Part shown: in pieces, positions 41,466 to 58,994 of the stretch
Position numbering within the stretch: position 1 is the stretch's first letter
How the letters are laid out: every line of letters starts with the position of its first letter
DNA from: Rhodothermales bacterium
GTDB taxonomy: Bacteria > Bacteroidota > Rhodothermia > Rhodothermales > Bin80
NCBI GenBank assembly: GCA_958296045.1
Contig: CATQHT010000003.1
Coordinates: 878,028-942,027 of the forward strand
DNA length: 64,000 bases
Direction of reading: 5' to 3'
The notes under the pieces: generated by a model
Seen by the model: only the letters and a program-made list of their open reading frames with translations
What the model was told of the DNA's origin: nothing
The model's database searches: none
Program-made: the position numbers and the translations under genes

Positions 41466-41672
41466 ATGAACGCGGATAGCAAACCGGGGACATCTAACTC
41501 CAGTGAAAAACGTCACGCTGGGCGTGAGGCCGAGGCTGTCTTTACCAAGCCAGACCGTATCAACGAGAATTGGTTTGACTTGGTTCAGCAGGCGCGCAAA
41601 GCACGGGAGCAGGGAAACAAGATGCGTGCTCATCTTCGAGCAACTGGCAAGGGCGGCCGCATTGCCCCGTGA
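41466..41672 (+). CDS. Small hypothetical protein (68 aa), upstream partner of SDH protease copy 1
   Basis: MNADSKP...VFTKPDRINENWFDLVQQARKAREQGNKMRAH; homologous to the disrupted ORF at 58256-58499; TGA overlaps the protease GTG (GTGA). Confidence 0.65.
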   Translation: MNADSKPGTSNSSEKRHAGREAEAVFTKPDRINENWFDLVQQARKAREQGNKMRAHLRATGKGGRIAP

Positions 41673-42541
41673 GTCACATTCCCAAGAACTCGTAAGCAGA
41701 ATCTACTGGGAGAAGCCCGTTATTTGAAGCGACCAACTACGCTCGCTTTGTGCGGCAGAAGCAGATACGAGATTACCAGGACAAGTTCGACTGCCGTCTG
41801 ATAGTATTCATCGGCTCGATTCACTCCGCGGTAATTACGCCCTTCGAAGAGACCTTATACGAAGCTGATTCCACTCATGATCTGCACCTCATGCTTTGCA
41901 CGCTCGGTGGGGACCTGGAGACAGCTTTGAGACTTATACGACAGGCGCAGTCCCAATGCAAGAAACTCACGGTGATCGTACCTGACCAGGCCAAGAGTGC
42001 GGGAACACTGGTTACGCTGGGGGCACACCACATTCTGATGGGACCTACCAGCGATCTCGGGCCTATAGATCCACAGCTAAGAGTGGGGAATCCCTGGGTT
42101 GCCGCGCGTACTATAATGGACGCTGTTGAGGATGTGGAGGAGCGCATCTAGGAAAGCCCTGCGACTTTTCCCGTGTACGCTTCGATGCTCGGGCATGTTA
42201 CGGTGCTCCTTTTAAGCCAAGCACGCAGCGCCGTGGCCCAAGCCGACGATCTGTTGCGCAAGGCTGTTGCATGCGTGCCGGATCGAGGCTCCGATGCCAT
42301 AGATCAACTCGTAGCGAGGCTTAAAGGACCATTGATTAAGGACCACCAGAGCCACAACGCAACCATTTCAGCGATTGACGCCAAGGAATGCGGATTACCA
42401 GTGACATTGATGCCACCATCCGACGACCAGTGGAAGAAACTCTGGCTACTTTGGACGCGATACGTGTCATTGAGCCCAAACAGCATTTATAGCGCGCAGA
42501 TCTATGAGGGAGAGAAGGCTTCCTTTACTCACTTTCCATGA
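41669..42541 (+). pseudogene. SDH-family ClpP-fold serine protease, two in-frame stops
   Basis: One frame from GTG 41669, interrupted by TAA (41693-41695) and TAG (42149-42151); motifs TLGGD, DQAKSAGT, SDLGPIDPQ, SH. Confidence 0.85.
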
Positions 42542-42559
42542 CCGCATGCACGATTCCCA

Positions 42560-43285
42560 CCCGACGCGGTCGTGTAAGTCAGCCAAACGCGCTGACAGTC
42601 CAACCTCGTATGCCACCCATGATATGCGGTCCACGCCTGTCGCTGCCTTCTTCTTTAGCTGACAGGAGGCATGCCGCAGCGATTTCACCGTGACATGGTG
42701 CAGAAGCGTTGTGAGCTTCTCCTTGGGTTTCCGCTTAACAAATTGTCGCAACCGGTCCACTCCACGTTGCACCGCTACCCAATCCCGCGCTCAGACAGTG
42801 TTAGGGTTTTCCAGTTGCCCCTCAGGTGCAGGACTTGGTCTGGCAACCCCGCCGGGCGGCTACGCCCCTTGTTCGCTGCTTTCATAGCTACCATTGCTGC
42901 ATCAGATTACTCCATGTCGGTCATCTCCAGATACGGGGATAAACCCTTTCCTTTGCGACCCTGAGCGACTCCAGGGTGACACGGAGACCTCCCAGGTCCC
43001 GGCGTAGTACGTACGTGCGCGCCTGGGTTCTTGGACACCGCGGGATCCTCCTCCGCCTCACCATTAGCGGCGAAGAAGGTGTTGCCGTCAACCATGGGAA
43101 AAGCCTCGGCATCCCGGACTAGAGCTCTTTCGGTGCTCAATTGCCCTGCCCACACGCGCCTCTAACGACGCTTCGCCTGTGCCCTCGCGAGTACAGACGC
43201 CCGGCGAGAGGAGCTGTGTAGTTGGTTACTCTTTCACAACGGGGGACTTGCACTTCCTGTACTAACGCCAGTTAGCCTGGCGCAC
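42560..43285 (-). mobile_element. Truncated group II intron (5' ribozyme region + RT N-terminus, class E-like)
   Basis: Begins GTGCGCCAGGCTAACTGGCG at 43285 (canonical GUGYG); ~500 nt of noncoding sequence, then KLTTLLHHVT...LKKKAATGVD..SW..Y...L..RLADLHDRV; RT core and domains V/VI absent. Confidence 0.85.
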
Positions 43286-44135
43286 TCTCATCTTGCTGCC
43301 TTTCCTGAGCGGGCACCCAGTCCGTCGTAGATCGCCGCCTCCGAACCGCGTGGATGGCCCGCATAAGCGCGCGAATGATGCCCGTCAATAGATACGCGAC
43401 TAGACCGATCAGCAGGCCTAACTCTCGCAATACCAGAATCAAGACGATAGCGACGCAATAGCTGGCAGCCGCAAGTGGCCGCGCCGCCAAGTACGCTGCC
43501 GTTGGCTTGGGCGCACCCTCAAAAGGAAGTGTGGTCACCATGAGCGCCGAGAGGACAAGCACCAACGGAATCAGTACGCCGGCATCAAGCATCCCAGGAG
43601 CCAGAAGCCAGCTTTCGCCCATGGTACAAAGGACAAATGTGATAAGAAAAAAGGCCTGAACCGGCGCGGGTAATCCGCTGTAGTATTCTTGGCTTACGTC
43701 TTCAATTGCTAGGTTGTAGCGGGCAAGCCGCACCGCGGCGCATAGTACCGGCAAGGCGGACACTACCACACCCAGCACGCCGTACTCGCTCAGAGCAAAT
43801 GCATAGACTAGCAATGAAGGCGCCGCACCGAACGATACCACGTCACTAAGGGAATCAAGCTCCACACCGAACAGGCTCTGCCCTTGGGCGAGGCGGGCCA
43901 TCATGCCGTCCAAGAGATCGAAAAAGCCAGCGAGCACAATCAGGTAACAGGCATAGGCCAGTTGCCCTTCGTACACCTGAACGATGGCGACGAACCCGCA
44001 GAAAAGGTTCATCAGGGTGAATAATGACGGTACAGCCGCCCGTGGCAGCGGTCTGCCAGACCATCGAAAGCGGTTGGCCGCGGTCATCCTCTGTCGCAAT
44101 CGGGGCCTGCGCGAACGTGTCTCAGTTCGTCGCAT
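43272..44135 (-). CDS. pssA: CDP-diacylglycerol--serine O-phosphatidyltransferase
   Basis: PSLFTLMNLFCG, DLLDGMMAR, FGVELDSLSDVVSFG, RLARYN, GLPAP; follows psd. Confidence 0.94.
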   Translation of the reverse strand: MRRTETRSRRPRLRQRMTAANRFRWSGRPLPRAAVPSLFTLMNLFCGFVAIVQVYEGQLAYACYLIVLAGFFDLLDGMMARLAQGQSLFGVELDSLSDVVSFGAAPSLLVYAFALSEYGVLGVVVSALPVLCAAVRLARYNLAIEDVSQEYYSGLPAPVQAFFLITFVLCTMGESWLLAPGMLDAGVLIPLVLVLSALMVTTLPFEGAPKPTAAYLAARPLAAASYCVAIVLILVLRELGLLIGLVAYLLTGIIRALMRAIHAVRRRRSTTDWVPAQERQQDESAPG

Positions 44136-44800
44136 TAAGCTTCAGGCATGCGTCCCATCACCGATTCTCCTGCGCGCACGCGGTCACCCACCTTCACGGT
44201 TACCGAAAGCTCCAGAGGCACCAGCACATCCAGACGTGACCCGAATCGGATGATGCCGAACCGATCGCCAGCGTTTACGCTGTCACCGGCGCTGACATGG
44301 TACACTATGCGTCGGGCCAGAGTGCCCGCAATCTGCTTGAAAAGAATCTTCTGGCCCAACGGGTGGCGCACGCCAAACAGCGACTGCTCGTTGTGGCTGG
44401 AGGCTTTGGCTTGCCATGCCTGGCGGCGAGTACCTCGCTGGTAGTGCGCATATTCGATGACGCCAGCCGCGGGGATGCGGTTGACATGCACATTAAGAGG
44501 AGACAGGAAGATAGATACCCTACGTGCGGGACCCTTCAGAAAGTGAGGTTCCTCCTCCATCGTTACCGCCACCACACGGCCATCCGCTGGCGCTAAGAGC
44601 ACCGTATGGGCATCTGGAGGCACTTCGCGGTGCGGATCGCGAAAAAAGTACAGTGGAAAGATCCCCAAAAACAGAATGATCGCCGCGACAGCGGCTGTAC
44701 GCCCGCTAGGGGGAAGCGGCAGCACCGCTGCGGCCGTCACCGCCAGCGCCGCCAGGATCCAAGTCAGGCCGATCACCGGATAGCCCTCGCGCGCTATCAT
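44135..44800 (-). CDS. psd: Phosphatidylserine decarboxylase proenzyme
   Basis: FFRDP.R, APADG, IFLSPLNVHVNR, RFGS cleavage motif. Confidence 0.95.
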   Translation of the reverse strand: MIAREGYPVIGLTWILAALAVTAAAVLPLPPSGRTAAVAAIILFLGIFPLYFFRDPHREVPPDAHTVLLAPADGRVVAVTMEEEPHFLKGPARRVSIFLSPLNVHVNRIPAAGVIEYAHYQRGTRRQAWQAKASSHNEQSLFGVRHPLGQKILFKQIAGTLARRIVYHVSAGDSVNAGDRFGIIRFGSRLDVLVPLELSVTVKVGDRVRAGESVMGRMPEA

Positions 44801-44876
44801 CCGTCCTTAAAGATCAATGCCGGGAGCCTCGATCCGCCTCGTTAGTTTCCAGCTGCACAAGGTAAGAAAATTGCCC

Positions 44877-46181
44877 ATGCCCCGTGTCACGTTTCACACG
44901 CTGGGCTGCAAGCTCAACTTTGCAGAAACCAGTGGCATCCGCCGCCGATTCGCTAACCGCGGCTATGTCGTGGTCCCATTCGGCCATGTGGCAGATGTAG
45001 TCGTCATCAACACCTGCTCAGTGACGAGCGAGGCGGACCGCAAGTGTCGCCAGGTGATCCGGCGCGGGAGAAAGACCAGCCCAGAGGCTTGTCTCATCGT
45101 TACCGGCTGCTATGCGCAGCTGAGGCCTGAAGCAGTCGCCGCCATTGAGGGCGTTGATGTAGTCCTTGGCACTCGCGAGAAAGCCCGCCTCTTTGAGTTT
45201 GTCGACTCATTTGAGCGTCGTGACGAGGCCCAGGTCAACGTATCGTGCACCGACGACCTTCAGGACTTTGATCCGGCACTTCTCTCTTTTGAGCGTACGC
45301 GTGCCTTCTTGAAGGTCCAGGACGGGTGCGACTATTCCTGTGCGTTCTGCACGATCCCGCGTGCGCGCGGCGGAAGTCGCAGCGCGTCGCCGAACCAAGT
45401 CGTTGAGCAGGCTCGTGCCATTGCCGTACGAGGCATCCAGGAGATCGTACTGACAGGCGTGAACATAGGCCTCTACGGCCAGGGCCGCCATGACGGTGCC
45501 GGTGGCAATGGCACGCTGCTGAGGCTTCTCGAAGACCTTAGCCGGGTCGAGGGCATCGCACGCTTTCGGATTTCGTCCATCGAGCCGAACCTGTTGAGCG
45601 ACGATATCATCGACTTTGTGGGTCGCACACCGTCTTTCGTTCCGCATTTCCACCTTCCGCTCCAGAGCGGCGACGACACCATGCTGGGCATTATGCGCCG
45701 CCGCTACCGCCGGAGCGTGTATGTAAGCCGCGTAGAGCGGATCCGGCAGGCGATGCCCGACGCTGGGATTGGCGCGGACGTGATCGTCGGGCATCCAGGA
45801 GAATGCTCAGAGCGGTTTCAAACCACGGTCCGCTTCCTGCGAGACTTGCCGGTCACCTACCTGCACACTTTTACTTATTCGGAGCGCCCCGACACCGTGT
45901 CAGCCACGACCACACGCCACCGCTCAGTCCCGGTGCCTGAGCGTCGCGCGCGCAACCGCACCCTAAGGACGCTATCCGACCGGAAGCTGGCCGCCTTTGT
46001 GGATTCCCAGGTTGGGACGATACGCCCGGTGCTCTGGGAACGCGGCAGAAAGCGCGACCTGATGCGCGGATATACGGACAACTACATTCAGGTGCAGCGC
46101 CCCTTTGACGCGCAACGGGCTGGTCAAGTAGAGCATGTGCGGCTAAGACGCCGCGAAGGACTCACGGTCGTGGCTGGATAG
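44877..46181 (+). CDS. mtaB: tRNA t6A37 methylthiotransferase MtaB
   Basis: TLGCKLNFAE, INTCSVT, TGCYAQ, KVQDGCDYSCAFC, SSIEP. Confidence 0.93.
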   Translation: MPRVTFHTLGCKLNFAETSGIRRRFANRGYVVVPFGHVADVVVINTCSVTSEADRKCRQVIRRGRKTSPEACLIVTGCYAQLRPEAVAAIEGVDVVLGTREKARLFEFVDSFERRDEAQVNVSCTDDLQDFDPALLSFERTRAFLKVQDGCDYSCAFCTIPRARGGSRSASPNQVVEQARAIAVRGIQEIVLTGVNIGLYGQGRHDGAGGNGTLLRLLEDLSRVEGIARFRISSIEPNLLSDDIIDFVGRTPSFVPHFHLPLQSGDDTMLGIMRRRYRRSVYVSRVERIRQAMPDAGIGADVIVGHPGECSERFQTTVRFLRDLPVTYLHTFTYSERPDTVSATTTRHRSVPVPERRARNRTLRTLSDRKLAAFVDSQVGTIRPVLWERGRKRDLMRGYTDNYIQVQRPFDAQRAGQVEHVRLRRREGLTVVAG

Positions 46182-46183
46182 CG

Positions 46184-47572
46184 TCACGCTGCGCACGCTG
46201 CTTCCACATCCAGTACCGCCTTTGGTATCGGCGGTCCCAAAATGCACGACCCGGAAGGAGTAACCAGCACGTCGTCTTCGATCCGTACTCCCCCGAACGT
46301 GCGCCATCGCTCAACTTCCGCATAGTTGATGAAAGCCGCATGCCGCCGTTTTGCACGCCATTGATCGATGAGCGCCCCTATGAAATAGCATCCCGGTTCG
46401 ACCGTAATCACATGTCCTGCGCGGAGCGCACGTGCCAGGCGCAGGTACGCCAGCCCGAACTGGTCCGAACGCTTCACTGAGTCGCCATACCCCACTAGGT
46501 CCTCGCCCAAGCCTTCCATATCGTGCACATCCAATCCCATCATGTGACCTAACCCATGTGGAAAAAAGAGCGCATGAGCTCCCTGGGCCACCGCTTCATC
46601 GGTATCTCCGTGCATCAGACCCAGATCTTTGAGGTCAGCTGCAACAGAGCGCGCCGCCAACAGGTGCGCGTCAAGAAAACGGTACCCGGGTCGTAGTGCA
46701 CCTATGGCGGCCTCCTGAGCGCGCAGCACCAAAGAATAGATCGCTCGCTGGCGCGCCGAAAAGGTCCCGCTAACAGGAATGGTCCGAGTGATATCACTGG
46801 CATACTGCATCGGTGACGACGCACCGCTGTCGTGCACTACCAGATCGCCGTTCCGCAGGCGGTTGCCGTAATAGTGATTGTGGAGAATTTCGCCCCGCCT
46901 GGTGAGGATGCACGGGAATGCCAGCCGCCCGCCGCCGGCGATCGCAATGCCTTCTATGTGGCCCGCGATGTCGCGCTCCAAGGCACCCGTTGTTACCAGC
47001 CGCATCGCCGCCGTATGCATCGCATGTGATACCTGGAGCGCGGACTCAATCTGGCGAACCTCTCGCGACTCTTTGACAGATCGCTGCCGTACTATGGCAC
47101 GTATCAGCTTCGTTGACGCATGGTGCGGAGCCGAACCGGTACCCAGGCCTAGCAGCGACTCTACCCGCACCTGCGTGTTAACCCGGTACGGCGGCTCATA
47201 GTGTACCCGACGACCGGCTGCCTTCATGGTACGCAACGTCTCTTCCAGATCGCCAGACGGGCGAACCTCATGGGCCCCGACCCGATCTGCGAGCGCTGCC
47301 GCCTCTGGCTGGGGTCCGCTCCATATGACGTCGTCAACGCTCGGGCTGTCGGCAAAGAGGATGTGGCGTCCTTCGTCCGCATCAACCAGCGCTGCTAGGT
47401 CAGCGATAGGGTGTCCCCAGTAGTAAAGGAAGGAGCTGTCCTGCCTGAAAGGGTACCAGTTGTGTGGGTAATTCATGGGAGCATGGCGTGCACCCATAAA
47501 CAGGACCACGCCATTGCTGATAGTCCGAGACAGCTGGTCCCGGCGGTTGGCATACACGGAAGCGGAAAACAC
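46184..47572 (-). CDS. pepP: Xaa-Pro aminopeptidase (M24B)
   Basis: FRQDSSF, YASDITRT, HGLGH..GLDVHD, TVEPG, GVRIEDD. Confidence 0.92.
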   Translation of the reverse strand: MFSASVYANRRDQLSRTISNGVVLFMGARHAPMNYPHNWYPFRQDSSFLYYWGHPIADLAALVDADEGRHILFADSPSVDDVIWSGPQPEAAALADRVGAHEVRPSGDLEETLRTMKAAGRRVHYEPPYRVNTQVRVESLLGLGTGSAPHHASTKLIRAIVRQRSVKESREVRQIESALQVSHAMHTAAMRLVTTGALERDIAGHIEGIAIAGGGRLAFPCILTRRGEILHNHYYGNRLRNGDLVVHDSGASSPMQYASDITRTIPVSGTFSARQRAIYSLVLRAQEAAIGALRPGYRFLDAHLLAARSVAADLKDLGLMHGDTDEAVAQGAHALFFPHGLGHMMGLDVHDMEGLGEDLVGYGDSVKRSDQFGLAYLRLARALRAGHVITVEPGCYFIGALIDQWRAKRRHAAFINYAEVERWRTFGGVRIEDDVLVTPSGSCILGPPIPKAVLDVEAACAA

Positions 47573-47720
47573 AGGCAATAGAGTCTGGCAATATGCTGCG
47601 GCAATATACGACGGCACCTGCCGCATGCAGGCTGCACGCGACTGGCAATTCGACCATGCAAGGAACCTGACGTGCTGAACCGGGTAAACACAGTATCAGG
47701 CGTTATAGCGAGGTTGCTGT

Positions 47721-48194
47721 ATGAAATGCGTCCTCAAAGTCTTCTTGTTCGCGCTGTACGTTGCATTCATAGCGAGCGCGTGCGACGGTCCATCAACGCC
47801 CAAGCCCATCGATCCAGAAGTGGTCCCCAAGCCGCGATATGTGGCGGACGAGGATTACATCGAACTGGTTGATGGAATCAAGTACTACGACTTCAAGGTT
47901 GGCACCGGATCGGGTGCCAAAGCTGGTGACCATGTCGCGGTGCACTACCACGGCTGGCTTGCCGACAGCACCCTGATTGACAGTTCCTATCCGCGCGAGG
48001 AGCCGTTCGAGTTTCTTGTGGGCACAGGGACGGTCATCAGCGGATGGGACATTGGCATCCTTGGCATGAAGGAAGGCGGCGAACGGCAGCTGGTGATTCC
48101 GCCGAAGCATGCCTACGGCTCTACAGGTCGGCAGAACATCCCGCCTAATTCGACGCTGATCTTTGAGCTCGTGATGGTCCAGATCAACTTGTAG
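47721..48194 (+). CDS. FKBP-type peptidyl-prolyl isomerase lipoprotein
   Basis: Lipobox ASAC; VHYHG, DSS, VISGWD, IPP..AYG, IPPNSTLIFE. Confidence 0.93.
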   Translation: MKCVLKVFLFALYVAFIASACDGPSTPKPIDPEVVPKPRYVADEDYIELVDGIKYYDFKVGTGSGAKAGDHVAVHYHGWLADSTLIDSSYPREEPFEFLVGTGTVISGWDIGILGMKEGGERQLVIPPKHAYGSTGRQNIPPNSTLIFELVMVQINL

Positions 48195-48208
48195 GCATCA
48201 GGCCAACT

Positions 48209-51200
48209 TTAGGCGCCATCCCTGCTGCTTAGAGCGACGAAGTCCTCTGACAGGATCTCATCGAGCGTCTCGACCAAGCGGTCCGCGTCTTTGGTGTTAA
48301 ACACCAGCGGCGGCTTAATTTTGAGCACATTGCCCCAGGGGCCGTCCGTAGAGATCAGCACTCCCCGCTCCCGCATCCTGTTGGCCACGTAGGCGGCTTG
48401 GGCCTTAGCCGGCGTCCGCAGCGCTCGGTCGAGCACCAGCTCCACCCCCAGAAACAGTCCGCGGCCGCGCACATCACCCACTGCCGCATGCGCCTCCCCT
48501 AGTGCATGAAGGCGCGCCTTCAGGTGGTTACCGGTTCGGAACGCATGATCCTGGAGATTCTCGTCACGCAGTACATCTAGCACCGCCATGCCTACAGCGC
48601 AGGACACGGGATTACCTCCAAACGTGCTGAAAAACTCCATCCCGTTGTTGAATGAATCCGCGATCGCGCGCGTCGTCACCACGCCTGCGAGCGGATGTCC
48701 ATTCCCCATCGGCTTACCTAAGACGACGATGTCGGGCACCACATCCTGCGTCTGAAAACCCCAGAAGTGGGATCCTACCCGTCCGAACCCCACCTGCACC
48801 TCGTCCGCGATGCAGACACCACCCGCTTGGCGAACAAGTGTGTAGACCGCCTGCAGGTATCCCTCGGGAAACTCCACCTGACCTCCGCATCCGAGCAGCG
48901 ATTCGCAGATAAAAGCGCACAGCGGGTGCTCTAGACGATCTATGGCGTCGCGCACACTTTTAGCATATTGCAGCGCGGCTTGGCTCCCGCGGTACTTTCC
49001 CCGATACGGGTCTGGGGCCAGCGCCATCTGAACGTGGGGCGGCGCCCCTTCACCACCCGGACCGGCAAACTTATACGGACTAATTGCGATTAGCGAGGTC
49101 AGGTGACCGTGGTATGCGCCATCGAGGACTACCATGCCCGTGGCCAGGGTATGGGCACGCGCTAGGCGCAGCGCTAGGTCGTTGGCCTCGCTCCCGGAAT
49201 TGACAAAAAAACACACGGACAACGGATCCGGCATCGTGGCAACCAGCCGCTGGGCATACTGCACTAGCGATGCATGCAGGTAGCGCGTGTTGGTGTTCAG
49301 AACCAACTGCTGCCGCTGCGCGGCGCGCACCACCCGGGGGTGGCAATGTCCCACATGAGGCACGTTGTTGACGGCATCCAAGTAGGCGCGTCCTTCGGCA
49401 TCATACAGGTGCTGCGCCAGGCCTCGTACGATATGGAGCGGCTCGCGGTAGCTGACGCTGAGATTCGCGCCGACATGGTGTGCTCGCGAGCGCCTGACTT
49501 GCGCCGCTGTCCAACGCCTGGGCAACTCCCGAAAGTAATGCTCTGGAATCCTCAGAATTAGGTTAGGGTCTGGACAGATCGCCAGCCATACCGCGCGCTG
49601 ACTCGCTGGGGCTACGCCCAGGCAAACGTCGGTCGCTGCGTCATCAAAAAGGTCCGCAAACAACTGAAAATGCAGGTGCGGTATCCACCCTCCGTTTTCT
49701 TTGATAGTGCCGAGTGCACCGAAGGCCTGGCCCTTCAGGACTGGCATGCCCGGCACCAATGCGTCGACCGACTTGTGACTCAGATGCCCATAAAGGGTGT
49801 AAAAGGTGTCGCCTTCCGCCTCGTGGCGCAGTACGACAAGCCCGCCGAAGTCGAGCGGTAGGTTGCACTGGCGCGCGACATGCACGGTGCCCTCCATGGG
49901 CGCAAACACGGGGCTACCTGCGGCCTGAAACAGGTCGATGCCCAGATGAATGGTCCGGCGTTCGTTGTACTCGTTATGGGGGTGTCGAAACTGGTCGCTG
50001 CCATAGATCAGGCGCGCCTCATTGTAGCGTCCGACGCCAATGCTTGCTCCTTTGCGCTTTAGCTGGGCGAATAGAGCTTGCGACGCACTGACCGGATCCT
50101 GCGCGGGCGAGCCCAGCTCCGGGCTGGCCACACTGAAGTCAAGCACCAGTGGCACCTTGCGATTTGGAGCCTGCTGCACTACGGGCGCAAAGGTGCCCGC
50201 TTGCCGCTTGAGCCATCCGACCACGCGCGTAGAGGCGGGGCAGATGTCGAAGTTGCAGGCTTCGCGGAACCGGTACGTCGCTAAGGATCGAGATTCCGCG
50301 CTGAGGCGCGCAAGAAGCTGCCAGGCCGGTGCTTCAGAAATCTTCAGATACCGGTTGTCCGGCTGAGAGCGGCCGCGATATGCAGACACTAATACGCTGC
50401 TGCAGAGCCTAGCTAAGACTAGGTCATACAATTGCGCTATCTCTTCCTCGAGCAGCGGAAATGCTTGGTGATATCCACGAATGACATGGACCGCCGCACC
50501 CACAGGGTCCGCCTTGTTCATCATCACGTAGGTCGCCGCTATGGCGACTTCGCAGATCAATGATGTATGCACCATGTCACCGAAATCCACGATCCCGCTG
50601 ATGCGAGACTGGTACCCGGCCTGTTCTACTAGAATATTCTGATCATTGGCGTCGTTATGAATCACACCTCGGCGCATTGGCCAGAGGCGGGGCAGAACGG
50701 ACACTTCATAGTGATCCAGGCAGCGCGCCGCTAATGCTCTCCGCTCTGCTCCGGTCACAAACGGCACTAGGTCCTGAAGCTCAGGCGCCCGCAACAGGTC
50801 CCAGGGCAGGCTCCGCGAAGCGTGAGGATGGCGAAAGTCTGCCAGATCCCGATCGAGACTGCCAAGGACAGTGCCCAGTCCTTCAAGAAGGTGCGGCATG
50901 GCACTAGGCCGCACCTCGCCCAAGGGCCTGCCTTCGAGGAAGGAAATCATCCAGATACGATGGCAGGCTCCACGGGCCCGGTGTGCAACGACTACCGGCT
51001 GCCCATCAGTGGCCATCACGACGCGCGGACAGTCGCTACGGCGAGTGGCAAGGAACTGCAGCGCGGCTACCTGCAGATCCAGTTCCGCCATGTCCGTGCG
51101 CGCATTGGACACCTTGAGTACATAACAAGAGTCCTTGGTCTGAATCAGGAAGTTCTGATCCATGTAGGACGGAAGGACAGCCGCCACGCCCCGTATGCCA

Positions 51201-51292
51201 TACCAATCCGCGGCCAGCCTTGCGGCTTCCTCGGTGGTGAAGGCTGGCGGCTCTCCGCTCAGCGCTGCGCCAATAAAGGAGTCAGTCTTCAT
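48209..51292 (-). CDS. Phosphotransferase (hydroxylysine-kinase-like) - M23 peptidase - class III PLP phospho-lyase fusion
   Basis: HNDANDQN and DFGD kinase motifs; HLGID and PHLHFQ M23 motifs; [32 protein letters not shown] class III motifs. Confidence 0.9.
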
Positions 51293-52193
51293 CGTTCCAT
51301 GGCCGGAAGCATTGTGTCACTATGCTGTCCAATGAGGTACTCAGGACCTCCTGCAATGCAGCCAAAGGCGGTCGCACATGGCGCCATTCTGGATCACGGG
51401 TCCGGTACGCCATTATGGCCTTGAGCATGGGAATTACGGATTGCGCCTCCACGGCTGCCCGGATGCGGGTAATCCGGCGCAAGAGTTCTGCTGCGCGTCT
51501 TTCGTGCGCCTCCCGGTAGAGCGCCTGCACAAGGATACAGGTCACGTTGACGGTGGCACTGATGCATCCCGCGCCCCCTGCGCGGAGTACCGGGGGTAAC
51601 AGCGTTTCTGTGCCAGCAAAGAAGCGAAGCTCCGGCAATCGGTCCATCACATCCAACATGTGATTCAGGTTTCCGCTCGAGTCTTTCAATCCGGCGATGG
51701 CCTTCGGATAGGTCGACTTCAGGCATGCCACGAGCGCATGACTCAGTGGTACCGCGCTCATCTGAGGAAAATGGTAGAGGTAGATTCTAAGTCTGGCGTC
51801 CGCGACCGACTGTATCACCTGGTCGTACGCTGCATAAAGACCCTCATCGCCGGGGCGCTTATAATAGAAGGGAGGCAGCATGAGCACGGATGTGATGCCA
51901 CACTGGAGCGCATGCCGCGTAAGGGCTACCGTGTCAGGAATCGCCGCGCAGCCGGTCCCCACCATCATGCGCTCTGGGGGAAGCCCGGCCTCGAGCAGCT
52001 TTTCCAAGGTGTGTTGGCGCTCGGCCACGCTAAACGATGTGGCCTCCCCGGTGGTACCCATCAGGGCAACGCCGTCGCAGCCATGATTCAGCAGCCATCG
52101 GACATGCGCGGCGAAGCGATCTTCGTCAATGGACAGATCCGCGCGCAGCGGCGTCAGGCTGGCGGCATGAACACCGTCCGGTATTTCGCACAT
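51282..52193 (-). CDS. Dihydrodipicolinate synthase (DapA)-family aldolase/lyase
   Basis: GTTGE, PPFYY, YHFP, GLKDSSG (Schiff-base lysine); overlaps the downstream fusion gene by 11 bp. Confidence 0.9.
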   Translation of the reverse strand: MCEIPDGVHAASLTPLRADLSIDEDRFAAHVRWLLNHGCDGVALMGTTGEATSFSVAERQHTLEKLLEAGLPPERMMVGTGCAAIPDTVALTRHALQCGITSVLMLPPFYYKRPGDEGLYAAYDQVIQSVADARLRIYLYHFPQMSAVPLSHALVACLKSTYPKAIAGLKDSSGNLNHMLDVMDRLPELRFFAGTETLLPPVLRAGGAGCISATVNVTCILVQALYREAHERRAAELLRRITRIRAAVEAQSVIPMLKAIMAYRTRDPEWRHVRPPLAALQEVLSTSLDSIVTQCFRPWNDED

Positions 52194-52449
52194 CAGGGCA
52201 CCAGACCTAAAGAAGGGGGGTCTTTTTCTGCGCGCGGGTCGGACGCATCACATGGCACGAGGGGAACCGCCCCTGTCCGCCTCGCAGCGGAAAAGTACTG
52301 ATTCGGTCCGAAGTATTTCGCTCGCCTGCGTGCTCCGCAGCAGCTGAACGCGCTGGCGCCCCTGTGTGCCAGCAAATGATGCGACACTTTCTGGTCTTGA
52401 CCTAAGCAGGGCTTCGGTCAGCCGCGCGGCCGACTTTCCACTAAGCCAG

Positions 52450-53783
52450 TCACTACCTAATTATGACACCTGCTGACCCTCCTGGCAACACCCGTCTGGC
52501 CCATGCGCCGCCCACCGAAGTGGTGACGCGTCCCTCCCGTAGTCACTTTTCCAGAGCGTGCACGGAGCGCATCGTTTAGGAAGCGGATGCCTGTACGCGC
52601 CGCGGCCACTTCGGCGCACTTCTGCAACGCGAAGGGCTCTACAGTTCCGCGACTTCCCGCTGGCGAAAATAGCTCAACAAGAAGGCGCCAGTCATTACCC
52701 AAGCCAAGTGCAGCGTCCACGACGCTCAGACCCGGCGGCTAAAGGGCCTGGAGATTGCTCGACTACGGCGAAGACTGGCCAAAGCCATGGCCTCCTTGAT
52801 GCCCAAAACCCCGCTCACCGAAGTATTCTTGGACAGCGCGACCGTGCTGGAAGAACCGCCCTGATGCAAGACCTTGCCAACACGTCGGTCGGACTGAGCA
52901 TATCGCATGCCTGTCGGTAGCCGGGCGTGTCACGATCATGGTAATATCGCGCCATTATGCCCACACCCGCCTCCATGCCGCGCAAATTGTATGAGGGAGG
53001 CCGGCGCATATCAGAACCGGAGCAGGCGCACATGCGCAAGGTGTTAAGCTGCGAGCGCTTCTGCGATATGGTGCCACGTCACGTTTTTGCCTCCCTTCTG
53101 GACGAGGGACGCTACCTGTGCCATCGGCGAACGATTTACCAGATCCTATCCGAAGGCGACAGCACCCGCGAAAGACGCCGTCAGCGCTAGCATCCACGCT
53201 ATCGCAAGCCAGAACCGCTGGCTGCGCGCAGCAATACGCTGTGGTCCTGGGACAACACCAAACTCATAGGGACCGTACAAGTGGAGCCGCCGTGCACTCC
53301 AAGTCATCATAGATTTCTTCAGCCGATACGTCGTGGGATGGACCCTCGCCCGAAGGGACCCTCCATTTTGGTGCATACCTTGATCAAGATCACCTCCCAC
53401 CGCCAAGGCATACGACCCGGCCAACCGGTGATCCAAAGTAATCGGGGAAGTCCCATGACATCGAAGGTCGTCGCCCAGCTGCCCCACGATCTGCAAGTCG
53501 AACGATCGTTCACACGCCCGTACGCCTCCAACGGTATAATCCTAGGCAAGCTGAACGGTGAATCCGATCCAAGATGGACACCCAACCCGAACGCTTTGCA
53601 ACGGACCACCCACGGCCGAAATGCCGCCCAAATCCGCCTGGATTAACAATCCAAACGCAGGCCCTGACAGCCTGGAAACGGCGACATCAGGAGCGAACCT
53701 ATCGCAGTCCAAGGCGCAGTCCCACCCGAAATGCTACCGAACGCCGATTCCAAAAGGTGTGTCATAATCGTTGACACCTTCCG
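52450..53783 (+). mobile_element. IS3-family element relic (orfA + orfB, degenerate) with both ends
   Basis: orfA fragment EADACT..G.FGALLQREGLYSS; orfB fragments LLDEGRYLC..RTIY, WSWD, SNRGSPMTS, SFTRPYASN; left end ATTATGACAC near 52460 is inverted relative to right end GTGTCATAATCGTTGACACCTTCCG. Confidence 0.85.
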
Positions 53784-54058
53784 GCTCGCGGAAATATGTG
53801 CTCGGTTCAAGCTTCATAACTCGGGACTCTCGCCCGCTCTATTGTACCCATTAGCCTGGCGCACGTACAGAGCACCCTCGGACACCAAGGCCTTACCGCT
53901 ACCTCCCGATATGTGCATGCACGACCCCACGGCTCCATCGGAAACTATCAGGTACTCTGAAGACCGCGTCAGCCGGTCTCCCGACCCCGCCGCGCTGTCC
54001 GCTCCTTGGTTGGGACATTCGCCGCTGCAGAAGTTTCAAGCAGCTGGACGCCGTCCAA

Positions 54059-54271
54059 TCAGGTAGCATCCTTGGGTCGCCCACAAGCATGGCAATGACT
54101 GGGAGGCGTCGCCGGCAGTGGCGGCAACGTAATGTACTTCCGATCCGAAGTAGATTTCATGACCTGAATGTCCTTAACGATGGCTTCAGGATCGTAGTTG
54201 AACTTCGCTGCATACGCCTCGCGTCTTGCACGCAACTCAGCCAAAATCGGGTCCGCCGGTGGGTTTTTCAT
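54059..54271 (-). CDS. Small hypothetical protein, putative partner/antitoxin of the PIN gene
   Basis: DPILAELRARREAYAAKFNYDPEAIVKDIQ, the kind of small protein commonly found downstream of this PIN family; overlaps the PIN 3' end. Confidence 0.7.
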   Translation of the reverse strand: MKNPPADPILAELRARREAYAAKFNYDPEAIVKDIQVMKSTSDRKYITLPPLPATPPSHCHACGRPKDAT

Positions 54272-54746
54272 AGGGTACCTCCATTAATGCAGCCGGTGTG
54301 CAGATCACTGCCGGCCTGTGGTTCAATGCACGATATGCGCGATTAATCCTGGGAAGTTGCACCGGATTCGCAATATGCTTGAAATTCCACGTCACCAGGT
54401 AATTCGTACGATTGACCGCGGCGATGGCGATATGGGTCGCATCGGCGGCTGCCTTGCGTGGCAAAGCGCCTTGACTCAGCAATTCATCGACCAACGCTAT
54501 CACCGCTGCAGTGGTGTCGAGCACCATAACACTATTCAATACTGCCATGCGGGCGCGTACTCCATGCGCATTGCCCGCTCCGGCTTCATCCACTACCAAA
54601 TCCGATGCCACCAGGGTGTACTGCTGCGCCGCCATACGCCCCCAATCACGGGTGGCCTGCTGACGTCCCGCGACAACCAAGTCACGGGAAGGATGTGCCA
54701 CCAGATAGCTGACCACGCTGGTTTCCAGATACACAGAAGGCAGCAT
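54237..54746 (-). CDS. PIN-domain (VapC-like) protein
   Basis: VYLETSVVSYL, E, DATHIAIA, LVTWNFKHIAN, ICTP motifs. Confidence 0.88.
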   Translation of the reverse strand: MLPSVYLETSVVSYLVAHPSRDLVVAGRQQATRDWGRMAAQQYTLVASDLVVDEAGAGNAHGVRARMAVLNSVMVLDTTAAVIALVDELLSQGALPRKAAADATHIAIAAVNRTNYLVTWNFKHIANPVQLPRINRAYRALNHRPAVICTPAALMEVPYEKPTGGPDFG

Positions 54747-55583
54747 ACCGCGGGAATAAACGCCACGACAAAATACGGGAGACGCATCTTACAGCCCCAG
54801 ATCTTGCTCATGGATCCGTTCCTGGTGCACGAGGTAGTTCACCATATCCAGGATTCCGCTTTCAATGCCGCGCTCATGCGCCTCTCCTGTTACCTCGCTA
54901 TACTGATGCTCCGGTGTCCACCTCCAACACCGTGCCAACAGCCTGGTCGCGCTGCTGCTTCACCTGGTGCACATCGCATTGGTGTTCCTTCCGCGTTTGG
55001 GTTAGCGTCTCTTCGCCCAATCCAGAGTGGACCTGCGGGTGCCGTAAGTCGAGGCCACCGCATACATAGGCGAACCACGGCAGCGGGAAATGAGATGCAA
55101 CTTGGCTCGGGGACAATTCTGCAGACGACGTCTGCAGAATTGGCGGACGGCCAGACGCTCCAGACGCTGCCTGGAGGATTCGCTCAGGTGGATACACTTG
55201 GTAGAATAAACGTATCTGCCGATACTCTGGCGAGAAAACCCTCGACAAAATCGCTTCGTCAAATTTTCCGACAGCCTTTAAATGAGCATTGCCACCAGCA
55301 GGCCGCCGACGCCGTACAGCTCAGGAAGGCTTAGGGCAGTTTTCCGAGGGTCCGCGCCTGATCCAATCCAAGCGGCGGGAGTCAAACAGCGGGAATTCAG
55401 ACAAGATTTGGTCGAGGCCTTCGATGCTGCTGCCGGGCTGCCGGGATAGCTTCACAACCGAGACCTAGACGGCCCTCGACCACGCTTTGGATCGCTAATT
55501 CGACCGCAGCTCCTGGGGTGACTTGGGGATAGGACAGCGTCCTCTCTTCCGAAATCCAACCCCAAGTCAGTGGGGGCATGTCG

Positions 55584-56579
55584 TTAGACTTTGGCCGTGA
55601 ACATTCTCAACTCGTCCGATATGGGGAGCATGAAAGTTTCCGTTCGCGACGTTCCGAGAGTGGATACCGCGAACCGGTATTCCCGCTCGCCAGAGAACCT
55701 TGTCCTCTTCGTGAACCATGCCCGCGACGCCGGAGAGAGGTCGACGTAGTCCTCCTTCGATCTCACGACGCCGGATTGGTCCTCGTATACGACGGGGCCG
55801 TGGTAGACGTGGACGAACTTGTCTACTCAATGCTCACCTTCCCACAGGCTCGTTGAATATGAGCTTTGTCGATAGGCCCGTTCGTCTGGGTCGTCGAGCT
55901 TAACATGCTTGAACTTGTCGACACTGATCGCGAAATCGATGCCCAACTGCATTGCGAAATCTTCCAGATCCCGGATCGAAGTGATGGCTCCATAGTTGGG
56001 GAATCTCGCCCTCAGTCGCTGCGTGTCGGCGTCATTTGCAGGTGCAATTGACGTGCAGTAAATCCATGGTTCGCCGGGCCAAGAGGAGAGCCTCAACGAT
56101 ACCCTGGAAACGTGGGGGTAGGAGCCAGCCGTCCCCAAGGCAAGCTCCTGCTGCAACCAAGGCGTGCCGTCCTTCGTTAAGCAACCATCGTGCGGATCAA
56201 TGGATTCGTGATTGGGGCTCTCGCTTTTTCGATAGTAAGCTGGCGTTGCCAGCCGGAGTTCTCGCGCACGATATGGGGCAAAGCGCCGGTACGATAGCTT
56301 CACGAGGTTCTCAACCTGTGGCAGCGCGACCGAGCCGCCGTTGACTCTGTGAATGAGAACTAGGTAGCATTCCCTACGAAGGACGTTGTGGACCAAGATC
56401 ACCTGGGTGATAGGCAAAGGTTTCGCTTGCTTGATCCCGATGCTGGCTCTCACCTGTTGCTCAGCCTCAATGGCTTTCTGGTTCAGCAAGTCTGGTACGT
56501 CAGAGCCGCATCGGGTAAAGATCCAGTCTCCCTGGCGCCAGCTATAGCCTTCCTCGATGCGTCTATTGTTGCTCATCAT
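55584..56579 (-). pseudogene. DUF2971-like hypothetical protein with a single in-frame TGA
   Basis: ORFs 55827-56831 and 55584-55766 share a frame, separated by TGA at 55827-55829; motifs LRLATPAYYR, WIYCTS, HGPVVY, WFTKRTRFSGEREYRF. Confidence 0.6.
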
Positions 56580-56639
56580 CTGCAAATTTACGGGTTTCAA
56601 TGGGTGGTGACTTCGAATCAGCGCACGATCAAAATTCCA

Positions 56640-56756
56640 ACTGTGCGCATAAGAGTAGCGGATTGGTCTGCGCTTCGAATTGCGGGAGGTTCGGTCCTGG
56701 TGCCAACGCTTCACGGCGCTCCGGGTATGCGTTTGGCATGTTGATTCAGGCGGACA
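56640..56756 (-). mobile_element. Short relic of the IS3-family right-end region
   Basis: TTCGAATTGCGGGAGGTTCGGTCCTGGTGCC...TTGATTCAGGCGGA matches 20368-20450 and 58662-58742. Confidence 0.6.
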
Positions 56757-56769
56757 ATAGGAAGGCATT

Positions 56770-57010
56770 TGCCCATCACCGGCAAATCGCCCGGGCCCTT
56801 TCGGCCTTGTTTTACCCTGCAGCCGCACCACTTAAAGGAGCGTGGCCTGAACAAGCACACCAATGGTCTGGTACGGCAGCCCTTTCCGAAAGCAGCCAAC
56901 TTCCGCACGCCTACACCGGCAGCGGTAATGCGAATCCAGACGATATTGAACGATTGTCCACGTAATGGCTTGGCTTACCGCACATCGGCGGACGTCTCCT
57001 TTGGTGTATG
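56770..57010 (+). mobile_element. IS30-family transposase C-terminal relic
   Basis: PHHLKERGLNKHTNGLVRQPFPK...ILNDCPRNGLAYRTSADV matches the IS30 pattern ERG.NE.TNGL.RQ.FPK...LN.RPRK.L.YRTP. Confidence 0.8.
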
Positions 57011-57415
57011 GTAGACGGCAGCAGTCGCTGTTGATGTGTGCACAGGGTCTGACCTAGACCGTGAGCAGAAGCCATCGCACCCAGATCCGCTCCTCGCAGC
57101 AGTCCAGCGTACGTAGATGGACTGACTCTGGCGTGTTATCACCTGGACTTGTAAGCCACGATACCGTCGACAAACGGCATCATGCATGCGTGCGCGCAGA
57201 GGGAAGGGTACGCTTGCCCCGCTGACGCCGAAGCTCTTGGGGCCCCAAGCGCTGTTTCAGTCTGCTCGACGCCGTTCCATCTTTGATCGGGCTTCGCCCT
57301 CCCTTCAATGGAACGGCCCCCTTCCTGCTCTCTTCGCTAACCTCTGACCTCTGCCTCTATTTGCGAACACACTGACCTGATTGCATATGTTCCGCTTCGG
57401 AGTAAAATTGGGAAA

Positions 57416-58255
57416 TCAAGAATCAGGCTGCTGATTGCCAAAGACATGTGAGGCGGTCTGCCCTTCGTAGACACCGACCTGCCCCAACACCACGTACTTC
57501 ATATACAGGCGCCAAATTGCCTGCCATTGCTCGGACAAAGGGTCGGCTATTTCCACCGGCAGGCCAAACTTCTCCGCGTCCGCTGCGGAAATCACCGCAC
57601 TATGGCTCTTTGACCCTTTTATCAAGGTCTCCCTGAGGGCATCACACAGCTTTTCAATCGTCTCATTGCTGCGACACGACACCGACGCTAATGCCTCTTT
57701 GACCATGTCTTCGGTTCGGTCAATCTGGTCACGCGCCTGCTCCACCATCAGCGCGGTCACCGGCTCCAGCAGGGAGATATAAAACTGGAAGGCTTGGGGA
57801 TTCTGCCGGATGCCATTCTCCGCCCCATCAACGGCAGCGATGATAGCCCGGGCGGAGGCCAACGATCCATCGCGGAGTCGAAACTGAGGATCCACGGGAC
57901 CGAGATCACTAGTTGGCCCCATGTAGATTCGGTGAGCTCCCAACACGAGGAGCGTGCCCGCGCTCTTAGCTTGATCGGTTACAATGACCGTGAACCTTTG
58001 GCACCGGGCTTGGATCTGCCGAATAAGCCGAAGTGCGGTCTCACCGTCGCCGCCCTGTGTAACCAGTATCAGGTGGAGATCCTGGTCTGGACTGGCATCA
58101 AAGAGGGTCTCCTCGAGCAAAGATACGCTGTGCGGATAGAGCCTATCGGACATAACTACCAATCGGCAGTTATGCTCTTCCTGATACTCGCGGATCAGGG
58201 CTTGACGCTCGTAACGTAACAGCGTGGACGGCCTCGTAGAAAGGGCTGCGAGCAC
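57416..58255 (-). CDS. SDH-family ClpP-fold serine protease, copy 2 (+1 frameshift near native start; open from alternative GTG)
   Basis: TQGGD, DQAKSAGT, SDLGPVDPQ, SH motifs; the likely native start GTG 58259 reads VSARSPFYEAVHA and is one base out of frame with RYERQ. Confidence 0.85.
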   Translation of the reverse strand: MLAALSTRPSTLLRYERQALIREYQEEHNCRLVVMSDRLYPHSVSLLEETLFDASPDQDLHLILVTQGGDGETALRLIRQIQARCQRFTVIVTDQAKSAGTLLVLGAHRIYMGPTSDLGPVDPQFRLRDGSLASARAIIAAVDGAENGIRQNPQAFQFYISLLEPVTALMVEQARDQIDRTEDMVKEALASVSCRSNETIEKLCDALRETLIKGSKSHSAVISAADAEKFGLPVEIADPLSEQWQAIWRLYMKYVVLGQVGVYEGQTASHVFGNQQPDS

Positions 58256-58499
58256 TCACGGTCGTCGCGTAGGTGACTCCACTGTAATAGGAAACTTTGG
58301 ATGTTGAAAGACGATGGGCTTGTTCTTGCGCATCTTGCGGGCTAGGTCCCGTGCTTAGCGAGCGAGTGCGATCTGCTCACGCCAATCGGGGTCAAAGTCA
58401 GCTGGGGGCTGCAGCACGGGGGATCCCTTGGGATTTGGGGATGTCGTCTGAGCGTCGGGGTATTGCCCTTCCAAAGGGCGTGATTCAGCAATTTCGCAT
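58256..58499 (-). pseudogene. Small partner ORF of SDH protease copy 2, with in-frame TAA; start uncertain
   Basis: VLQPPADFDPDWREQIALAR*ARDLARKMRKNK; TAA at 58355-58357 aligns to Lys (AAA) in copy 1; ends with a GTGA overlap. Confidence 0.6.
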
Positions 58500-58960: not shown

Positions 58961-58994
58961 CCGAAGCGCCGCGGGTAGTTGGCAGCCTGCCAGG

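What the first reader, a model, noticed from the sequence alone, without database searches (positions are those of the whole stretch)
41466..58499. Unannotated two-gene module (small basic ORF + ClpP-fold SDH protease) present twice in separate islands
Seen: copy 1 at 41466-42541 (+), copy 2 at 57416-58499 (-). The small ORFs align (VFTKPDRINENWFDLVQQARKAREQGNKMR vs VLQPPADFDPDWREQIALAR*ARDLARKMR). Both end in CCGTGA overlapping the protease GTG, and the protease N-termini align (RSPLFEATNYARFVRQKQIRDYQ vs RSPFYEAVHA-RYERQALIREYQ). The copies are well diverged, so the linkage and coupling are old and conserved. Both sit among IS relics. Inference: a mobile protease-plus-small-partner system (toxin-antitoxin, protease-activated defence, or inhibitor/substrate pair) that I do not recognise as described.
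Basis: partly seen in the sequence, partly recalled or inferred. Interest (0 to 1): 0.78.

Follow-up and report, generated by a model that had tools for sequence, protein, structure and literature searches.

The report
Dead copies of protease-partner gene pair
The window holds two decayed copies of a two-gene cassette, a tiny basic protein followed by a ClpP-like serine protease, which is intact, always paired and widespread in other bacteria but has no known function.

Summary
Both copies exist, and a third, IS-split copy lies elsewhere in the genome. All three are pseudogenes. Copy 1 has in-frame TAA and TAG in the protease. Copy 2 has ATT in place of ATG, a TAA in the small ORF and a 1-nt frameshift in the protease.

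Elsewhere the pair is a real operon. All 80 fetched loci, from at least seven phyla by record title, carry a homologue of the small ORF before the protease. In 79 it lies directly upstream. A six-frame control of 12,829 ORFs gave one other match, in L055, where a transposase gene lies between. Both genes are under purifying selection.

The small protein (about 60-90 aa) matches no Pfam family. Its model is a disordered head, one helix and an extended tail. The protease is a PF01972 enzyme with a ClpP fold. No third gene is conserved, and the pair is patchy among relatives.

Distant full-length homologues are the fifth gene of plasmid ubiquitin-like (Bub-type) operons.

My best reading is a conflict or addiction cassette with the small protein as the protease's regulator. 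This is untested: the complex prediction never ran.

The parts
41466..41672 (+). Copy 1, small-partner ORF (68 aa from ATG 41466; 90 aa if GTG 41400 is used). Open, with the core WFDLVQQARKAREQGNKMR.
   Evidence: ORF. As a phmmer query it hits upstream ORFs of L026, L073, L034 and L037 at E 2e-6 to 9e-6. The family profile scores it at E 1e-11.
41669..42541 (+). Copy 1, ClpP-fold SDH-type serine protease pseudogene. GTG 41669 overlaps the small ORF's TGA. In-frame TAA at 41693-41695 and TAG at 42149-42151. The AKSAGT serine motif is kept.
   Evidence: Sequence and ORFs. PF01972 at 40.6 bits against a cutoff of 31.3. 50% identity to the intact L009 protease over residues 9-272, with one stop inside the match.
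42564..43285 (-). Truncated 5' part of a group II intron that abuts copy 1. It is a multi-copy repeat in the genome.
   Evidence: Rfam RF02005 at 43026-43250 (-), 147.4 bits. At least 15 genomic copies at about 89% identity.
57416..58259 (-). Copy 2, protease pseudogene. The family start GTG is at 58259. A 1-nt frameshift near 58218 separates the N-terminal motif VSARSPFYEAVHA from the 279-aa open frame 57416-58255.
   Evidence: The family N-terminus is in A1. 72% identity to L009 over residues 20-283. PF01972 at 39 bits. X1 contigs match the window across the frameshift site.
58256..58492 (-). Copy 2, small-partner pseudogene. ATT at 58492-58490 stands where ATG is expected. In-frame TAA at 58357-58355. 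TGA at 58258-58256 overlaps the protease GTG.
   Evidence: 50% identity to the L009 small protein over 68 residues (E 9e-23). A contig of run X2 reads ATG and CAA at these two sites.
56749..57412 (.). Multi-copy repeat directly downstream of copy 2 (at least 10 near-full-length genomic copies at about 76-80% identity).
   Evidence: blastn of the window against the genome.
58591..59185 (.). Two adjoining multi-copy repeat families directly upstream of copy 2.
   Evidence: blastn of the window against the genome. ORFs inside match no Pfam or NCBIfam family.

Best explanation
Shown. The window carries two decayed copies, and the genome a third, of a widespread two-gene operon that stands on its own. 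Gene 1 encodes a basic protein of about 60-90 aa. Its model has a disordered N-terminal half, one helix (core DPDW-RERIE-AK-ARE--RKAR) and a short extended tail (GKP--F). Gene 2 is translationally coupled to it and encodes a protein of about 280 aa with a ClpP fold of the SDH type (PF01972). It keeps the AKSA(G/A)T serine and has a family-specific N-terminus, RSPLYEA-HAARYERQ-LIR-YQ.

Inferred. The pair works as a conflict or addiction cassette. The small, largely unfolded protein is the protease's cognate regulator, an antitoxin-like inhibitor or bait that docks through its helix and tail. When the partner is lost, displaced or degraded, for instance on phage attack or loss of the cassette, the protease is free to cut cellular or invader proteins.

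In this genome nothing works any more. Every copy has been disabled by nonsense mutations, a lost start codon, a frameshift or IS insertion.
For: Linkage. A small-ORF homologue lies directly upstream in 79 of 80 loci and 1.5 kb upstream in L055, behind a Mutator-type transposase gene. The profile hit no other ORF among 12,829 six-frame ORFs of the same loci. It also lies upstream in 3 of 3 viral contigs that include upstream DNA.

Coupling. By a nearest-start rule, 24 of 80 junctions overlap by 4 nt (NTGA) and 5 of 80 by 8 nt. L009 has AAGGAG before the small ORF's ATG.

Both are real genes. dN/dS is 0.07-0.33 for the small ORF and 0.02-0.16 for the protease in the pairs with dS above 0.1, apart from the protease of L039/L073 at 0.91. 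78 of 80 protease frames are open, and 80 of 80 keep AKSAGT or AKSAAT.

The partner has no fold of its own. The AF2 model has mean pLDDT 71 and a single helix at residues 37-55. No Pfam family appears at E<=1e-5 in the 12 small proteins, and none recurs among 58 at E<=1. An exhaustive profile search found 463 representative clusters. The 150 best are 49-182 aa, so none is fused to another domain.

Protease. Model pLDDT is 90.4. Best Foldseek matches are ClpP structures, with target TM 0.6-0.67.

Accessory character. No third conserved gene. Found in 2 of 24 other family genomes. The tree mixes phyla. 19 of 87 neighbours carry mobile or defence-type Pfam families, and 13 of 87 match PADLOC models.

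Conflict link. Full-length homologues (hhalign 99.9%, E 6e-32) close Bub-type ubiquitin-like operons on 5 of 5 plasmids inspected. Other SDH subfamilies also pair with small ORFs in prophages.

Repeated protease loss. The window strain has a frameshift. The X2 strain has a different nonsense codon at 58204 while its small ORF is open.
Against: No physical or functional test was done. Binding, inhibition, toxicity and phage defence are all inferred.

Neither protein matches any PADLOC model.

About 20 of the 87 neighbours are ordinary metabolic genes and 48 have no family. I had no background rate for comparison, so enrichment in defence islands is not shown.

The small protein has no recognisable DNA-binding domain, unlike most type II antitoxins.

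Only 4 of 2.9 million viral contigs carry the pair.

Decay of all copies here, and the two independent protease lesions, fit plain neutral decay in a genome full of repeats as well as they fit selection against a toxic protease. The dN/dS of 0.59 between copies 2 and 3 was barely told apart from a shifted-frame control at 0.54.
Confidence: 0.4

Rival explanations
1. Substrate or pro-peptide pair. The small protein is the protease's dedicated substrate. The protease trims its tail or releases its helix, and the processed peptide is the active product (a signal, effector or tag).
For: The closest solved relative by sequence is 1510-N, the NfeD protease (3bpp, E 3.3e-6). Entry 3viv is titled a stomatin-specific protease with a substrate peptide. 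That its substrate is encoded beside it is my recollection.

In the Bub-type plasmid operons that hold the homologous protease, the ubiquitin-like proteins end in INPG plus 1-3 extra residues. They have no JAB peptidase gene among the annotated genes, so some peptidase must expose the glycine.

The small protein's conserved part is C-terminal and ends in an extended tail with an almost constant GKP--F.
Against: The Bub preprint assigns peptidase activity to BubE/DUF6527, which is present in those operons (passages of 10.1101/2024.11.21.623953).

The small protein is not a beta-grasp domain.

No E1, E2 or other enzyme that could use a processed peptide is conserved nearby.
Confidence: 0.25
2. 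An ordinary regulated protease outside any conflict. The small protein is an adaptor or chaperone for a niche housekeeping protease, and the mobile neighbourhoods are incidental.
For: About 20 of the 87 neighbours are metabolic genes. There is no PADLOC match. The protease is strongly conserved, at 56-73% identity across phyla.
Against: The pair is patchy among close relatives: 2 of 24 other family genomes and none in 16 other families of the order. The tree mixes phyla. There are multiple diverged copies in one genome. It sits often beside transposases, integrases and restriction genes. Its homologue lies in Bub-type operons on plasmids.
Confidence: 0.2
3. The small ORF is not a gene. Its resemblance between the copies is chance or a conserved leader or regulatory region of the protease gene.
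For: It is short and rich in basic residues, and the first 30-40 residues are not conserved.
Against: Protein-level profile matches occur in the right frame in all 80 loci and nowhere else among 12,829 ORFs. dN/dS is 0.07-0.33. L009 has a Shine-Dalgarno sequence. Independent gene callers predict it as a protein of 54-88 aa.
Confidence: 0.01

Closest known systems
FS_HP_SDH_sah anti-phage system (DefenseFinder name; attributed from memory to Fillol-Salom et al., Cell 2022, which is not held)
   Same: A two-gene unit of a hypothetical protein plus an SDH_sah (PF01972) ClpP-like serine protease, carried by mobile elements. The name is used in PMC13532340; I saw one passage. I saw similar pairs directly. 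A 71-aa ORF overlaps the start of a 331-aa SDH-type protease in a Klebsiella phage. A 59-aa ORF overlaps the end of a 331-aa 'serine protease' in an E. coli phage-plasmid.
   Different: The proteases share only the catalytic core with ours: 40% identity over residues 64-131, and 31% over residues 22-129. By eye the Klebsiella phage's small partner shows no likeness to ours; I ran no comparison. Ours has its own N-terminal motif and C-terminal helical domain, and it is rare in viral contigs. I could not obtain that system's models or sequences, so membership is untested.
Bub (6E/DUF6527) bacterial ubiquitination-like operons (Ye, Gong, Chambers, Corbett; bioRxiv 10.1101/2024.11.21.623953; abstract and passages read)
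   Same: Full-length homologues of our protease share the N-terminal motif, AKSAGT, DPQ and the C-terminal KSH motif (hhalign 99.9%, 36% identity over 258 columns). On all 5 plasmids inspected they follow a Bub-type gene set. In the three fully annotated loci the order is multiubiquitin, E2, ThiF-type E1, DUF6527, protease. In Phenylobacterium and the two Methylocystis plasmids the protease gene overlaps DUF6527 by 4 nt. The Rhizobium and Microbacterium tables are partial.
   Different: None of the 87 scanned neighbours in the small-ORF clade is an E1, E2, ubiquitin-like or DUF6527 protein. The five Bub-type loci have no small-ORF homologue. Both Bub preprints show 0 occurrences of 'Clp' in their main text. 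Their supplementary tables were not seen.
Type II toxin-antitoxin modules
   Same: A small upstream gene overlaps a larger downstream gene by 4 nt. The upstream product is largely disordered. The distribution is patchy and mobile, with several diverged and decaying copies per genome.
   Different: No DNA-binding fold is seen in the small protein. I recall no ClpP-fold protease among established toxins. Toxicity is untested.
NfeD (1510-N) protease of Pyrococcus horikoshii with stomatin
   Same: Closest solved relative by sequence (3bpp, E 3.3e-6 over 86 profile positions). It is a ClpP-fold serine protease whose substrate is, from memory, encoded beside it.
   Different: Ours shows no membrane segment on inspection of the sequences, and no stomatin neighbour. 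Only the core matches.

Membership tests
Pfam PF01972 SDH_protease (ClpP-like SDH-type serine proteinase) | Score above Pfam's gathering cutoff | tested here: met
   Copy 2 scores 39 bits and the first half of copy 1 scores 40.6 bits, against a cutoff of 31.3.
Pfam PF01972 SDH_protease (ClpP-like SDH-type serine proteinase) | ClpP/crotonase-type fold with the nucleophile serine in a G/A-x-S-A-G/A motif | tested here: met
   The AF2 model of the intact relative L009 has pLDDT 90.4. Its best Foldseek hits are ClpP chains with target TM 0.6-0.67. AKSAGT or AKSAAT is present in 80 of 80 loci and in both window copies. The partner residues of the triad were not located in the model.
NCBIfam NF047768 Clp_like_SDH (equivalog) | Score above the curated cutoff of 250 bits | tested here: not met
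   64 bits. This is a separate subfamily.
FS_HP_SDH_sah defence system | An SDH_sah-domain protease next to the system's hypothetical protein | tested here: inconclusive
   The protease domain is present. DefenseFinder's models and the original sequences are not on hand, and the paper is not held. The PADLOC library gave no hit.
FS_HP_SDH_sah defence system | Protection against phage | not testable with these tools
   Needs a phage challenge of cells that carry an intact pair.
Type II toxin-antitoxin | Small upstream gene coupled to a larger downstream gene | tested here: met
   CCGTGA in both window copies. A 4-nt overlap in 24 of 80 loci.
Type II toxin-antitoxin | Antitoxin with a DNA-binding domain; toxin harmful when alone | tested here: inconclusive
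   The model shows one helix and no known fold, and no Pfam family matches. Toxicity cannot be tested here.
Bub (6E/DUF6527) operon | Adjacent ubiquitin-like, E2, E1 and DUF6527 genes | tested here: not met
   No such Pfam family at E<=1e-5 among the 87 nearest neighbours scanned in the 80 loci, and no conserved third gene. Only the protease is homologous to a component of the plasmid operons.
NfeD-stomatin pair | Membrane-bound NfeD protease with a neighbouring stomatin gene | tested here: not met
   No stomatin-family neighbour. PF25145 NfeD1b_N scores 24.5 bits against a cutoff of 40.

The most novel reading that the evidence does not exclude
This protease family is a shared output or processing peptidase of bacterial ubiquitin-like (Bub-type) immune operons. 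In the two-gene cassette, a 40-residue helix-plus-tail protein replaces the whole ubiquitin-like, E1, E2 and DUF6527 machinery as the protease's switch. That would make it a minimal protease-based immune or addiction system of a kind not yet described, spread over at least seven phyla.
Probability: 0.15. Interest if true: 0.8.

Novelty: new variant of a known kind. Interest (0 to 1): 0.55.

Why it matters
For this window alone it matters little. These are three dead genes among IS debris in what the run labels suggest is a sponge-associated bacterium.

The family behind them is a better lead. It is a strictly paired, horizontally moving operon: at least 1010 protease homologues and 463 representative clusters of the partner. 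It has no Pfam family for the partner, no PADLOC match, and no description in the papers my searches reached.

Its protease has an unremarked sister group that is the fifth gene of Bub-type ubiquitin-like operons on plasmids.

If the pair proves to be a protease-based toxin-antitoxin or defence system, it would add a ClpP-fold effector to that repertoire. It would also offer a handle on what Bub operons do, which the Bub preprint leaves open: in the passage I read, no phage protection had yet been found.

Tried and rejected

PADLOC on both proteins found nothing. The ESM Atlas on the L009 partner gave a best score of 0.76, below any useful level. The search of earlier findings by sequence and by place found nothing.

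The small-ORF profile found nothing beside two other SDH proteases of the same genome (L006 and L007), nor in the five Bub-type plasmid loci.

Literature. The searches found no paper on such a pair. Fillol-Salom 2022 is not held.

I considered stop-codon recoding to explain the in-frame TAA and TAG, and dropped it without a test. Copy 2 also has a frameshift and a lost start, and copy 3 is split by insertions, which no recoding would mend.

I considered calling the neighbourhoods 'defence islands' and did not. I had no background rate, and I scanned only 87 of the 152 candidate neighbour ORFs listed. These were picked by hand, mostly the longer ones.

The dN/dS of copy 2 against copy 3 (0.59) is no clear sign of relaxed selection, because a shifted-frame control gave 0.54.

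RNA-library contigs: X8 covers 58195-58345, which does not show transcription. Stretches with no cover in X1, X2 and X5 say nothing.

Full report
**What is in the window**

Copy 1 is on the + strand. An open small ORF (ATG 41466 or GTG 41400, to TGA 41670-41672) overlaps, as CCGTGA, the GTG (41669) of a protease frame that ends at 42541. That frame is broken by TAA at 41693-41695 and TAG at 42149-42151.

Copy 2 is on the - strand and has the same CCGTGA junction (TGA 58258-58256, GTG 58259). Its small ORF has ATT (58492-58490) where copy 3 and the relative L009 have ATG, and an in-frame TAA at 58357-58355. Its protease has an open 279-aa frame (57416-58255). The family's N-terminus (VSARSPFYEAVHA) lies in another frame, so a 1-nt frameshift sits near 58218.

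A whole-genome search found a third copy at C3:1902350-1908158. It is cut into four pieces by two insertions. One insertion carries an IS4/Tn5-type transposase gene. This copy also has several stops, but its small ORF and its N-terminal protease segment are open.

The two window copies are far apart. The proteases are 53% and 38% identical over two 133-aa segments, and DNA similarity is almost gone. On a family tree, copy 2 groups with the Rhodothermales and Longimicrobiales loci L009, L010, L012 and L016. Copy 1 sits on a long branch elsewhere.

**Surroundings**

Island 1 lies between purS (40312-40587) and a CDP-alcohol phosphatidyltransferase gene (43272-44135). Island 2 lies between a DHDPS-family gene (51282-52193) and a galactokinase gene (59495-60784).

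Copy 1 abuts a truncated group II intron at 42564-43285 (Rfam RF02005, 147 bits; at least 15 copies in the genome). Copy 2 is bracketed by multi-copy repeats at 56749-57412 and 58591-59185.

**Is the pair real elsewhere?**

The protease has at least 1010 homologues at E<=1e-5. The 119 best besides the window's own are 250-354 aa long (most 270-300) and 56-73% identical.

A scan of one genome per species found 180 relatives. The best 80 loci were kept. Their record titles name Rhodothermales, Gemmatimonadota, Gamma- and Alphaproteobacteria, Chloroflexota, Acidobacteriota, Spirochaetia and Actinomycetota.

I translated the 700 nt upstream of each locus and iterated a profile from copy 3's small ORF.
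- 82 of 83 sources matched (80 loci plus the 3 own copies). L055 did not.
- Run against every ORF of at least 25 aa in six frames of the whole loci (12,829 ORFs), the profile hit only the ORFs directly upstream of the protease, and one ORF in L055 lying 1.5 kb upstream. A Mutator-family transposase gene lies between that ORF and the protease.
- So 80 of 80 loci have the partner.
- By a nearest-start rule, which is a heuristic, 24 of 80 junctions overlap by 4 nt and 5 of 80 by 8 nt.
- L009 has AAGGAG before the small ORF's ATG.

Selection was tested on 15 locus pairs.
- For the small ORF, 13 pairs had dS above 0.1, and their dN/dS was 0.07-0.33.
- For the protease, 13 pairs had dS above 0.1. 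Twelve gave dN/dS of 0.02-0.16. The thirteenth, L039/L073, gave 0.91, and L073 is broken.
- 78 of 80 protease frames are open (L048 and L073 are not).
- All 80 keep AKSAGT (70 loci) or AKSAAT (10 loci).

Gene callers do predict the partner, as 'hypothetical' proteins of 54-88 aa with no Pfam domain. An exhaustive profile search found 463 representative clusters at E<=0.001 and 106 at E<=1e-10. The 150 best are 49-182 aa long, with the motif near the C-terminus and no fusions.

**What the proteins look like**

Protease. It matches PF01972 above the cutoff but falls below the NCBIfam equivalog cutoff, 64 bits against 250. The model of L009 has pLDDT 90.4 and a ClpP core (Foldseek target TM 0.6-0.67). 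It adds an N-terminal helix pair and a helical C-terminal domain. The closest solved sequence is the NfeD protease 1510-N (E 3.3e-6).

Partner. No Pfam family matches. The model has mean pLDDT 71, with residues 1-36 disordered, one helix at 37-55 and an extended tail. W37 and R55 are nearly invariant and A44 is invariant.

**Context**

No third gene is conserved: the next cluster is shared by 10 of 80 loci.

I scanned 87 nearest neighbours, hand-picked from the 152 candidates.
- 19 carry mobile or defence-type Pfam families. These include transposases, integrases, a resolvase, SNF2 and ResIII helicases, DNA methylases, Mrr, McrBC, SIR2, an M78 peptidase, TerB and RadC.
- About 20 are metabolic, and 48 have no family.
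- 13 of 87 match PADLOC models, and some of those matches are generic.

Among 40 relatives searched, 2 of 24 genomes of the same family hold the pair, and none in the 16 other families of the order does. Only 4 viral contigs hold it, and the partner lies upstream in 3 of the 3 that include upstream DNA.

**Leads to function**

(a) Plasmid homologues. These are 30-35% identical over the full length, with the same N-terminal motif. On 5 of 5 plasmids inspected they follow a Bub-type gene set: Phenylobacterium, two Methylocystis, Rhizobium and Microbacterium.
- In the three fully annotated loci (Phenylobacterium and both Methylocystis) the order is multiubiquitin, E2, ThiF-type E1, DUF6527, then the protease, whose gene overlaps DUF6527 by 4 nt.
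- The Rhizobium table lists no E2 or DUF6527. In Microbacterium the genes are fragmented.
- These are Bub-type ubiquitin-like conjugation operons (10.1101/2024.11.21.623953; abstract and passages read).
- Their ubiquitin-like proteins end in INPG plus 1-3 residues.
- Neither Bub preprint mentions a Clp-type protease in its main text. Their supplements were not seen.
- These loci have no small-partner homologue.

I saw that name in one passage of PMC13532340. I also saw other SDH proteases with overlapping small ORFs in a Klebsiella phage and an E. coli phage-plasmid. Those share only the catalytic core with ours.

**Are the lesions real?**

X1 contigs match the window exactly across the frameshift site and the ATT codon. 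X1 may be the source sample.

A 3063-nt contig of another sample and study (X2) covers 57774-58700 and differs by 12 letters and 1 gap. It reads ATG at 58490 and CAA at 58357, and it lacks the extra base at 58218. It also has TAA for the invariant Gln of RYERQ at 58204, and it leaves the window's sequence at 57774, inside the protease.

So two strains carry different protease-killing lesions, and the partner is still open in one of them.

**Reading**

The architecture, the unfolded partner, the patchy and mobile distribution, and the homologues inside conflict-type operons point most plausibly to a conflict or addiction cassette, with the partner as the protease's regulator. I give that 0.4. 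A substrate or pro-peptide relation gets 0.25, and a non-conflict role 0.2.

No step of the mechanism is shown. The one computational test within reach, the complex prediction, never entered the queue (see Tried and rejected).

Noticed in passing
L098 2899-3834, L099 2932-3831, L102 3435-4328, L100 3456-4352, L101 3393-4338: On five plasmids a ClpP-fold protease homologous to this family follows a Bub-type gene set. In the three fully annotated loci the order is multiubiquitin, E2, ThiF-type E1, DUF6527, protease; the Rhizobium and Microbacterium tables are partial. In Phenylobacterium and the two Methylocystis plasmids it overlaps DUF6527 by 4 nt. In Microbacterium it is annotated as three fragments. 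The main text of both Bub preprints has 0 occurrences of 'Clp'. The ubiquitin-like proteins there end in INPG plus 1-3 residues.
   Followed up: partly
G000 C1:637762-639904 (L007 1060-3202, - strand): Another PF01972 protease frame (258 aa open) lies directly downstream of an AAA_15/AAA_21 ATPase frame. This looks like a different protease-ATPase pair of defence type.
   Followed up: no
G000 C1:542105-543082 (L006 1222-2199): An intact 326-aa SDH-type protease of a third subfamily (PF01972, 70.6 bits), 29% identical to copy 2. The small-partner profile matched nothing beside it.
   Followed up: partly
window 42564-43285: A truncated 5' part of a group II intron, present in at least 15 copies at about 89% identity. 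The genome is crowded with this and several other repeat families.
   Followed up: partly
G000 C3:1902350-1908158: A third copy of the cassette, split by two insertions of about 1.9 and 2.7 kb. One insertion holds an IS4/Tn5-type transposase gene (L005:19-1293).
   Followed up: partly
G002 C1:1325405-1328140 (L093, L095): The closest relative's genome holds one intact pair (L089) and a second protease copy split by about 2 kb, with a small-partner ORF upstream of the split copy. So multiple and decaying copies are not peculiar to this genome.
   Followed up: partly
window 57774-58700, in run X2: A near-identical allele in another sample has an open small ORF and no frameshift. It carries a different nonsense codon in the protease (58204), and its contig leaves the window's sequence at 57774.
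   Followed up: yes
L103 3480-3659 and L104 2194-2409: Other SDH-type proteases in an E. coli phage-plasmid and a Klebsiella phage also have small overlapping ORFs, 59 aa downstream and 71 aa upstream respectively. By eye the upstream one shows no likeness to the partner studied here.
   Followed up: partly
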